DNA of 64,000 nucleotides from Stylophora pistillata (lineage: Eukaryota): positions 443,380 to 507,379 of the forward strand of contig NW_019217912.1 of assembly GCF_002571385.2 (NCBI RefSeq), in the 5' to 3' direction. Numbering within the stretch: position 1 is the stretch's first letter; each line of letters starts with the position of its first letter. The notes beneath the pieces are model-generated. The model saw only the letters and a list, made by a program, of their open reading frames with translations, was not told where the DNA came from and did not search any database. Of the stretch, positions 55,601-58,600 are shown piece by piece. The position numbers and the translations under genes were made by a program.

Positions 55601-58600
55601 CAGGAACTCAGTAAAACCCACGAAAAGTCTAGGGAAGGAAAACATATCACAAGCCTTCATCATTCTATCAAGAAAGCAGGAGTGAGAAAGCCACGTTCAA
55701 TAGAATCCAATAGAATTGTAACAACAACTTACCATTCTTTAAAGAATAAACTTCACAAAAAGGGTCATCAGAATGGAAAAGGTGGTAAGAAGAATCAGGT
55801 AGTAATAAGAAGGCCACCACTTGTATATCACCCACCGCCAGAGGTGTATCATAGGCCAGATATCATTGTGCATCGCCCTGATATCGTACTCCATCAACCT
55901 TCCGTTGTCTATCATCAACCTTCCGTTGTGGTTCATCGTCCTCCTGTTATATACCGACAGCCACCAGTAGTATTTCATCAACCAGCACCAATGGTAAGAC
56001 AACCAATTTTCCATGCACATGAACACTACATGGCTCACCCTGCATTTGTTCCTTTCACGAGTCATGTCCAACATAGTGGAACTTACATAGGAGCTCCAGG
56101 CTTTTTCAATGACGGGTGGAACTATGGATACGGTCATGCTTTTGGAAAATCGCACGTGATCAAATACAAATCTAAGTCAGAAAAAACAATGAAAAGGAAC
56201 AGGAAACAGGAAACCAGATAGGAGAGAAGAAAGGGAAATATTTTACATCCTCAAGAGGCAAAAGACGAGAAAGCATCCAGAAAGAATGACATAGTGGTAA
56301 GCCGTCCCCCAATCATTTACCATCCACCACCTGAAATTTATCATAGACCAGACATCGTAGTTCACAGAGCGCCAATAGTGCTTCATCGTCCACCTATAAT
56401 CTACCATCAACCACCAGTCGTAGTGCACCGACCTGCTGTTGTGTATCATCAACCACCCATAGTATTCCATCAACCACCTCCCGCAGTTAACCAGCCTATT
56501 CTACACTCTCATGATTCATTTATTCTCCGTCCTGCAGCCAGATTCCTTCCCCAAGGCTCAACGGTAACACACAGTATGAGCTATGTAGGAATTCCAAACC
56601 ATGTAATCCATGGAGATGAGCTGGATTTTCATCACTTCCATCGGTCTCATATTGAACGTTCCTCGAAAGGTAAATTCAACTGGAAGTCATCAAAACCTCA
56701 GATAGCAAAGTCGACAATCTCGAAAACACCTACAACTAAAACTGAAAACACTGAAACGATCATCACCGACCAAACTCAGAAAAAGACTTTGCGATCTACA
56801 ATAAATCACCACCCACTCACGAAAAGACAGTTTATGGGCTCTCACCCACTATATGGACCTGTTTCTCCAATTAATGATGTAGAAGATCTATACAAGTCCA
56901 TTGAACAAAAAGAAAAGATGTCTATTATACCAGGGAACACCTCAATCCGCGAACATGAAGTTGCAAAGCGATCCCATAAACCAAGTCATCACATGACCAA
57001 GAGACAGTTAATCTTACCAGAATCTGCCGGAAGTGTGTATCACAATTCAATACCCTCAGTTTACAATCAACTTGAGACAGCTGCTCTACAGAATCAAGCT
57101 TTAATGGAAGAGCAGGGGATACCTAATCCGGACGGAATCAATATAGAACATTTGCCTGGTTTTGCCGCTAACTTAAAAGCTATTCAGGAGCTTGAAGGAG
57201 CTCCGGTCGCAGCGTCGCGTTTTTCAATACCATTGCAACAATACCTGCCCGCAGCTCCAAAGGATGACCCTCCCGATGTTCGTGTTCACGTCGAAACGGC
57301 AAAATCCTCCATACCGCTTAGAAAACGTGGAAAACGTCAGCTCGTTCCATTATATCAGCAGCAAGGTCCCGTAATTCCGAGATTTCTTTATCAAGCTCAA
57401 AACCCTGGAAGTGTTGGAGTCATACACTCTCCTGCCCCATCATCTCTTTACAACCTCTTCAATGCATACCATCCTGCTTACCACACCATACCAAATCCAC
57501 TGAGCTATTTATCTATGGTTCCGCAACTTCCACATCGTCCCCATGTAAATATAAATGTACAGTCTGCAAGGTCTGCAATACCAGTGCATGTCCTTCAAAA
57601 ACGATCTAAGAGGCAACTACTAGCCCTTACTCCACCAGTCCCAAGAGTTATGCCCGTTGGATTTGATGGAACTGGATTAATTCGTAACTATCCTACATAC
57701 TCGCCTTTCGCAGCTATTTCCCGATTTTCACTTCCACTTTTGACAAACTTCAAATATGCTGACGACTCCGTTCCCTCAGAGCCTGGATACCCAGAAGTAC
57801 TACCCTTGTTTCATCAATATCCAAAACAATTGCACAGGCTATATAACACATTATCGCAAGATGGAAGCAGTGACTCGCCACCAATTAACCCATGGGCCTC
57901 TTATCTAGCAGCCCTTTACAGTAGCTTCCTTGGTTATCCCCTTTATCACCGCCATCATAAACCTAAAGTCCGCGTTGAAGTCCAAGCATCCAAATCACAT
58001 ATACCCAAAGTCTTAAAAACAGAAAACAAGCACACTGTTCATTCCCGAGCTCCCATTACCAAAAGACAGTTACTTAATTACATACCGGAATCCTCATTCA
58101 CCGCAGGTCACTTTACCTTACCACCAGCATTAAATTATGGAATGCAAGGGATTCCTTTACAACGCTCACCACGAGTAAACATCAACGTTGAAACGACAAA
58201 AAAGAACAGAATTCCCGCGGTTAAAGAGTCAAAAGGATCCACAAAACGAGGTAATATAAAACATCGCCAAGTAAACAAAACTGGAGATAAAAGAGACGAA
58301 ATGATAGATGGAGAAAAAAATGGCGCAGATATGTTCCAAAACCGAGGCAACCCTGACTTCGCTAACAATCCAGAAAACCAGTTTGTTGCTACAAGTGAAA
58401 CAGCTGGAAGTGAAGAGGAACCTACATCCAATAATGAAGGCCAGCCTCAAAGTCAGAGTGAAAATTTCCAGCAGCAATCGGAAGAAGAAGCGGTCGGACA
58501 AAGGCAGGATCTACAGCAAAACTCTGAACAGCAACTGTTGCCATCTCAAGATCAACCTGTCATGGAACAGACGACATCGCAACCACAAGCCTTACGTGCA

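What the first reader, a model, noticed from the sequence alone, without database searches (positions are those of the whole stretch)
56219..56221. Single in-frame TAG inside an 18.7-kb reading frame
Seen: the frame continues perfectly past AGA TAG GAG into spacer and His/Pro domain 18, then for about 2,000 more intact codons. There is no convincing intron around the stop and no new signal peptide. A probable 3'-UTR intron at 62391-62803 would make termination at 56221 an NMD substrate. Inference: a nonsense allele, a consensus error (AAG/GAG/CAG), or programmed readthrough that sets the ratio of His/Pro domains to beta-tag modules. The stop falls within one unit of the boundary between the two module types. 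UAG-G is not the strongest known readthrough context.
Basis: partly seen in the sequence, partly recalled or inferred. Interest (0 to 1): 0.7.

Follow-up and report, generated by a model that had tools for sequence, protein, structure and literature searches.

The report
Likely miscalled stop in coral gene
The lone stop codon inside this giant coral gene for a predicted secreted protein is not a conserved read-through signal, because two sequencing runs of the same coral read a lysine codon there and the relatives found have ordinary amino-acid codons; it is likely an assembly miscall at a variable site, or else a chance nonsense allele.

Summary
The TAG at 56219-56221 is in the sequence: codon 4,198 of a 6,245-codon frame (ATG 43628, TAG 62363), in the linker before His/Pro domain 18. 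The gene is a conserved, uncharacterised cnidarian precursor. A named Stylophora pistillata gene model matches it at 6,136 of 6,136 aligned residues and avoids the stop with a predicted intron that an RNA contig does not splice. Programmed readthrough is refuted: a DNA contig and the one covering RNA read show AAG (Lys), 15 of 15 listed Pocillopora proteins have Pro there, 21 other homologues run through, and the context (UAG-G, no stable structure) is poor. The site is variable: a third run's contigs break exactly at 56219, and a fourth has a non-A letter, T or C, which the table does not show. Because the window holds letters that no run has at other variable sites, and close relatives have C-starting codons here, I favour a miscall at a heterozygous Lys/Gln site (0.6) over a real segregating nonsense allele (0.35). 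The 3'-UTR intron 62391-62803 is real. Low interest; the undescribed protein family is the better lead.

The parts
43628..62365 (+). Coding sequence of a giant cnidarian precursor, 6,245 codons plus stop, with one internal TAG
   Evidence: full-length homologues share the same N-terminus
43628..43717 (+). Predicted signal peptide (about residues 1-30)
   Evidence: hydrophobic core, conserved N-terminus in homologues; cleavage site judged by eye, no predictor run
55787..56152 (+). His/Pro domain 17 with its Gly-Lys-Ser end
56153..56278 (+). Fast-evolving K/R/E-rich linker that holds the TAG
   Evidence: alignment of 16 full-length proteins
56219..56221 (+). The in-frame TAG; AAG in runs X1 and X24; contig break at 56219 in X14; non-A, non-G letter in X15
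55994..56221 (+). 228-nt 'intron' of the public gene model P0003, likely a prediction forced by the stop
   Evidence: RNA contig 54761-57890 has 0 gaps and no such joint is listed
56279..56647 (+). His/Pro domain 18, highly conserved (dN/dS about 0.01 over 101 codons)
   Evidence: its start motif is present in 22 of 22 homologues including Hydra
56822..62362 (+). Region of [KR]RQ sites and 13-14 beta-tag modules, under purifying selection (dN/dS about 0.24)
62363..62365 (+). Normal stop codon, 25 nt upstream of the 3'-UTR junction
62391..62803 (+). 413-nt GT..AG intron in the 3'-UTR
   Evidence: 38 spliced reads in X24, one contig in X15, zero RNA depth in bin 62429-62755

Best explanation
The working gene has a sense codon at this position (AAG, Lys, in two runs), and the window's T is likely a wrong letter written by the assembly at a heterozygous site whose second allele is inferred to be CAG (Gln). 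The gene would then be translated as one 6,245-residue secreted precursor, predicted to be cut at its dibasic sites into His/Pro domains and beta-tag modules, with no recoding. Shown: the AAG allele, sense codons in relatives, selection on the downstream part, variability of the site. Inferred: that the T itself is an error and that the second allele is C.
For:: 56219 reads A in the X1 DNA contig (depth 24.5, 255 or more letters from its end) and in 1 of 1 raw RNA read of X24. X14's contigs end at 56218 and restart at 56220, the pattern of a two-allele site; the bin depth (290) is fully explained without any piece over 56219. Among the 40 of 73 rows shown, the window has four single letters that none of the four runs shows (55603, 56017, 59288, 63255) plus a cluster at 63014-63018 that 59 of 59 and 60 of 60 reads contradict. 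Two of the four fall on sites where the runs already carry two other letters (55603: A or C; 63255: C in 48 and T in 58 of 106 reads); chance of that is about 1e-4 to 2e-3 for 0.4-2% of sites variable (assumed rates). X15 has two T>C rows among its 10 hidden rows, so C at 56219 is possible. The nearest relatives have C-starting codons in a well-anchored column: Pro in 15 of 15 listed Pocillopora-cluster proteins, Gln in P0004 and P0038. None of the 20 runs holding 55300-57300 has more than 0.92 of its words, the share expected from five differences. Common nonsense alleles are expected to be rare in a gene whose downstream third has dN/dS 0.01-0.24 (inference).
Against: No call shows a C at 56219. 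The simplest reading of X15's contig (no A row, no G possible) is that it matches the window's T, which would make the T real. The window's letters at 56419, 56662, 57786, 61571 and 62999 are shared with at least one run, so most of its differences from X1 are true alleles. Gln stands at codon 3992 in Pocillopora, so G at 55603 could be a natural synonymous allele. The third-letter argument rests on two sites. The two papers checked for ambiguity-code handling by the assembler gave no support for a mechanism. X14's word share (0.91) is lower than its three visible differences explain, so word shares cannot be read site by site. X1 may be the window's own source sample, and only one raw read covers the codon.
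Confidence: 0.6

Rival explanations
1. A real nonsense allele (Lys AAG / stop TAG) segregates in the species. The window captured the T haplotype, X14 is A/T and X15 transcribes T. The allele would end the precursor after domain 17, losing 2,047 residues (33%), and would likely escape NMD because it lies in one very long exon.
For: Needs only two letters at the site. X15's poly(A) RNA contig (54761-57890, depth 9.5, no intron depth so not DNA) has no A and cannot have G at 56219. X14 breaks at the same base. 4.4% of all single changes in this frame give a stop (2,463 of 56,205). Long-exon escape from NMD is reported for human genes (PMC12776119, passages).
Against: It would be shared by up to 3 of 5 sources although it deletes the most conserved domain. 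X15's letter may be C. The window carries unsupported letters at other variable sites. None of the 22 + 19 homologue representatives that I aligned ends at this linker (15 of the 19 were aligned).
Confidence: 0.35
2. Programmed or basal readthrough of a fixed UAG sets the ratio of His/Pro domains to beta-tag modules.
For: Downstream frame intact and under selection; stop one domain from the module boundary; X15 may carry T in mRNA.
Against: Not fixed: AAG in X1 and X24. Not conserved: sense residues in all alignable homologues. Context GAGAGA after UAG, where leaky stops are mostly UGA-C (PMC12776119, passages). The 120 nt downstream fold less stably (-8.8 kcal/mol) than 89% of 122 windows of the gene. 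Downstream selection is explained by the sense allele.
Confidence: 0.02
3. The stop is removed by an in-frame intron 55994-56221 (as in gene model P0003).
For: GTAAGA donor and TAG|G acceptor in frame; the named model uses it.
Against: No polypyrimidine tract (18%); removes the conserved tail of domain 17; X15's RNA contig has no gap and no such joint is listed. X24 depth here is only 1-1.5, and contigs drop rare forms, so a minor splice form is not excluded.
Confidence: 0.03

Closest known systems
Premature stop in a draft diploid assembly, bypassed by a predicted intron (GenBank model AWC38_SpisGene9031, PFX26305.1, Stylophora pistillata; P0003)
   Same: Identical to the window's protein at 6,136 of 6,136 aligned residues; skips residues 4123-4198, ending exactly at the TAG.
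   Different: The model hides the stop; reads show an AAG allele and no such splice.
Programmed stop-codon readthrough (UGA-CUAG type genes)
   Same: In-frame stop followed by a long conserved coding extension.
   Different: Stop neither conserved nor fixed, UAG-G context, no stable downstream fold.
Segregating loss-of-function (nonsense) polymorphism that escapes NMD in a long exon
   Same: Site is variable among samples; geometry fits the long-exon rule.
   Different: The T has not been seen directly in any run; the rule comes from human data.
Uncharacterised cnidarian proteins pdam_00011478 (Pocillopora), LOC144643886 (Oculina), LOC116618347 (Nematostella), LOC100210570 (Hydra)
   Same: Homologues with the same His/Pro domains; anthozoan ones also share the signal-peptide-like start and [KR]RQ/beta-tag region.
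   Different: All uninterrupted at this linker; domain number 3-19. No function is given by their names, no Pfam family reaches its cut-off, no PDB match. Likeness to cnidocyst structural proteins such as spinalin is recalled, not tested.

Membership tests
Programmed stop-codon readthrough | Stop codon conserved in orthologues | tested here: not met
   Pro in 15 of 15 listed Pocillopora-cluster proteins, Gln in P0004/P0038, ATA in loci L002-L004. Length filter and gene calling favour unbroken forms, but a 4,197-aa form lay inside the searched range.
Programmed stop-codon readthrough | Stop fixed within the species | tested here: not met
   AAG in X1 contig and X24 read.
Programmed stop-codon readthrough | Leaky context (UGA-C, +4 C) or stimulatory downstream structure | tested here: not met
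   UAG-GAGAGA; downstream fold weaker than 89% of gene windows; context rules from PMC12776119 passages.
Programmed stop-codon readthrough | Coding selection downstream of the stop | tested here: met
   dN/dS 0.21-0.23 downstream, 0.01 in domain 18, 0.13-0.14 upstream against L002-L004; equally explained by the sense allele.
Programmed stop-codon readthrough | Ribosomes or peptides beyond the stop on a stop-bearing mRNA | not testable with these tools
   Needs ribosome profiling or proteomics.
Assembly miscall at a heterozygous site | Another letter in reads of the species | tested here: met
   A in X1 and X24.
Assembly miscall at a heterozygous site | The assembly's letter absent from all reads | tested here: inconclusive
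Assembly miscall at a heterozygous site | Other unsupported letters nearby | tested here: met
   55603, 56017, 59288, 63255 and 63014-63018.
Segregating nonsense allele | Stop letter seen in reads of an independent sample | tested here: inconclusive
   Possible in X15 and X14, not displayed.
Segregating nonsense allele | Site polymorphic in the species | tested here: met
   X14 break at 56219; X15 differs from X1 and X24.
EJC-dependent NMD substrate | Exon junction more than 50 nt downstream of the stop | tested here: met
   Junction 6,169 nt downstream, spliced in RNA; long-exon escape would weaken it.
EJC-dependent NMD substrate | Stop allele depleted in mRNA | not testable with these tools
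   One raw read covers the codon.
Stop-containing in-frame intron | Spliced reads across 55993/56222 | tested here: not met
   No such joint; X15 contig continuous. Low depth in X24.

The most novel reading that the evidence does not exclude
A common nonsense allele segregates in Stylophora pistillata, escapes NMD in its 19-kb exon and makes a precursor without domain 18 and all beta-tag modules, so that colonies differ genetically (not by recoding) in the ratio of modules released from a conserved, undescribed cnidarian structural polyprotein.
Probability: 0.2. Interest if true: 0.4.

Novelty: not a real feature. Interest (0 to 1): 0.12.

Why it matters
As a recoding signal it does not stand. 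What remains useful: the public S. pistillata model of this gene is wrong (it deletes the tail of domain 17 to avoid the stop), and this stretch of assembly seems to hold unsupported letters at variable sites, which matters to anyone calling SNPs against it. If the T is real and common, it would be a natural truncation allele of a 6,245-residue cnidarian-wide precursor for which my searches found no paper, and so a free genetic handle on its function.

Tried and rejected
No whole genome is held for the window. Exact look-up of three window ORF pieces found none in the protein collection. A search for shorter proteins holding the linker scored none of 236 candidates; a search with the downstream ORF gave 19 proteins, none near-identical (best 73%), so no second Stylophora protein was found. 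An exact DNA pattern around the codon found 0 matches in metagenome contigs. A BLASTN alignment seemed to place TAG at the same spot in L002-L004; codon alignment showed it is out of frame there (ATA GAG). L001's frame ends in this linker, but the homologous codon is Ile and the contig turns into unrelated sequence two to three codons later. Pfam: only sub-threshold Cuticle_3 and Chorion_3 hits; PDB sequence search 0; ESM Atlas best 0.78, a lead only. Window-specific changes at columns invariant in 15 homologues (10 of 1,187) against 4-9 for four other species do not separate errors from divergence. Selenocysteine rejected (codon is TAG). Paper searches: gene identifiers and a peptide motif, 0 papers; readthrough with cnidaria/Nematostella 4 listings and with coral/Stylophora 1 listing, none on topic by title and abstract start; searches gave nothing on this gene. 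Passages of PMC12945647 and PMC9935875 did not mention it; passages of PMC3844414 and PMC4237348 did not support the ambiguity-code idea. Supplementary gene tables were not opened and may list the gene under other identifiers. Earlier findings of the scan: nothing near or alike; one search listed eight unrelated loci.

Full report
Observation. The TAG stands at 56219-56221 in the context AGA TAG GAG. From ATG 43628 the frame runs 4,197 codons to this TAG and another 2,047 codons to TAG 62363-62365, with no other stop. The other two forward frames downstream hold 88 and 124 stops, so the open downstream frame is not chance. The protein has a hydrophobic N-terminus, 18 His/Pro domains separated by basic linkers, and then 13-14 beta-tag modules with [KR]RQ sites. 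The stop lies in the linker between domains 17 and 18. No signal-peptide-like stretch follows the first six downstream Met codons.

What the gene is. A search with residues 4020-4520, X at the stop, gave 22 proteins of 3,771-6,329 aa among 980 candidates. Named ones come from Stylophora, Oculina, Nematostella and Hydra, and the largest cluster (461 members) includes a Pocillopora damicornis model. All are uncharacterised. One, the S. pistillata model SpisGene9031 (P0003), equals the window's protein at all 6,136 aligned residues and lacks residues 3923-3955 and 4123-4198. The second gap is a GT..AG pair, 55994-56221, whose acceptor is the stop codon itself. So the sequence this model was built on had the same TAG. 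A paper on an S. pistillata draft genome describes ALLPATHS-LG with HAPLOIDIFY, gap filling, and AUGUSTUS models (PMC5730576, passages); no call ties P0003 or the window to it.

Orthologues. The other 21 hits continue into the equivalent of domain 18 in one protein; four of them are isoforms of one Hydra gene with an unalignable linker. At the stop's column 15 of 15 listed members of the Pocillopora cluster (of 461; 40 read by the tool) have Pro, and P0004 and P0038 have Gln. Three coral loci at about 72% DNA identity (L002-L004 of 7 loci) have ATA in open frames of 4,290-4,867 codons; against them dN/dS is 0.13-0.14 upstream, 0.01 in domain 18 and 0.21-0.23 downstream. The search favours unbroken genes and shows only cluster representatives, but a 4,197-aa form was inside its length range, and none of the 15 of 19 shorter hits that I aligned, nor four other short or isoform proteins, ends at this linker.

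Reads of the same coral. Twenty runs hold 55300-57300, none more than 0.92 of its words. Four were laid on 53600-63400. At 56219 the X1 DNA contig has A (AAG, Lys), and so does the one raw RNA read of X24 that covers it. X14's contigs end at 56218 and restart at 56220; the depth arithmetic shows nothing laid over the base. This is what a two-allele site gives, and X1 shows the same pattern at 59288. X15's poly(A) contig covers 54761-57890 without gaps and has no A at 56219; its single T>G row is at 59288, so the letter is T or C, and two of its ten hidden rows are T>C. 33 of 73 rows were not shown and the call cannot be repeated. The 3'-UTR intron 62391-62803 is spliced (38 reads, 20 starts; one X15 contig). 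No joint matches either intron of the public model.

Readthrough. The stop is neither conserved nor fixed. Its context is UAG-GAGAGA, whereas leakiness ranks UGA>UAG>UAA and rises with +4 C (PMC12776119, passages). The 120 nt after it fold less stably than 89% of 122 windows of the gene. Selection downstream is explained by the sense allele. Probability about 0.02.

Error or allele. Parsimony says X15 matches the window and the T is a real allele, shared by up to three of five sources. Such an allele would drop 2,047 residues (33%), and might escape NMD since it lies 6,169 nt from the only known downstream junction in one long exon; the normal stop lies 25 nt before that junction (rules from human data). 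Against this: among the rows shown the window has four single letters that no run has (55603, 56017, 59288, 63255) and a cluster at 63014-63018 contradicted by 59 of 59 reads. Two of the four sit where the runs already have two other letters, which chance gives at about 1e-4 to 2e-3 under assumed rates. That suggests the assembly sometimes wrote a third letter at heterozygous sites. Then 56219 could be an A/C site (Lys/Gln), which fits the C-starting codons of the nearest relatives and needs no common nonsense allele in a constrained gene. The mechanism (ambiguity codes mishandled in scaffolding) is my conjecture; two papers checked did not support it. Five other window letters are shared with runs, so the window is mostly a true haplotype, and G at 55603 may be natural. 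I put miscall at 0.6, real nonsense allele at 0.35, splice rescue at 0.03.

Function of the working gene (inference). Signal peptide, dibasic and [KR]RQ sites and Gly-Lys domain ends suggest a secreted polyprotein cut into modules, likely structural; two neighbouring ORFs have the same build with Gly/Cys/Tyr-rich modules. Pfam, PDB and the ESM Atlas gave no family; a search of 1.84 billion representatives gave 34 proteins at E up to 1e-30, unnamed except cnidarian ones. No paper names the gene in the searches run; supplements were not opened.

Verdict. The TAG is most likely an assembly fault at a variable site, otherwise an ordinary nonsense allele. Interest 0.12.

Noticed in passing
window 43628-62365 (+): The gene itself: a 6,245-residue predicted secreted polyprotein with 18 His/Pro heptad-repeat domains and 13-14 beta-tag modules, conserved from corals to Nematostella and (His/Pro part) Hydra, with no Pfam family at cut-off, no PDB match and no paper found by identifier. 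A better lead than the stop.
   Followed up: partly
window 38178-40166 (-) and 34111-35784 (-): Two more modular ORFs (662 and 557 aa) with Gly/Tyr/Cys-rich modules, basic linkers and [FY]-x-[KR]-S-K module ends like those of the giant gene; the first has a signal-peptide-like start. Suggests a cluster of secreted structural precursors.
   Followed up: no
window 22234-24756 (+): 840-aa ORF with a Cys-rich stretch followed by an Ala/Gly repeat array (23109-24185).
   Followed up: no
window 55396-55494 (+): A 99-nt GT..AG pair with a pyrimidine-rich acceptor is skipped in both the Stylophora and the Pocillopora damicornis gene models (same 33 residues) but retained in X15's RNA contig and in full-length Pocillopora ORFs: a shared misprediction or a minor in-frame splice.
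   Followed up: partly
window 55603, 56017, 59288, 63255, 63014-63018: Letters of the window that none of four runs shows; two are third letters at sites where the runs carry two others. Possible systematic assembly fault at heterozygous sites.
   Followed up: partly
L001 1-667: A 3.4-kb coral-like contig follows the gene up to the same linker, with Ile at the homologous codon, then turns into unrelated sequence: chimeric contig, insertion or partial copy.
   Followed up: partly
L005 7145-7727: A distant homologue appears to have an intron in the tail of domain 18, where the window's gene has none.
   Followed up: no
window 62363-62391: The normal stop lies 25 nt before the 3'-UTR junction, inside the 50-nt zone that would spare the mRNA from NMD.
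   Followed up: yes
window 29718-29790 (-): One tRNA-Thr(AGT) call by ARAGORN.
   Followed up: no
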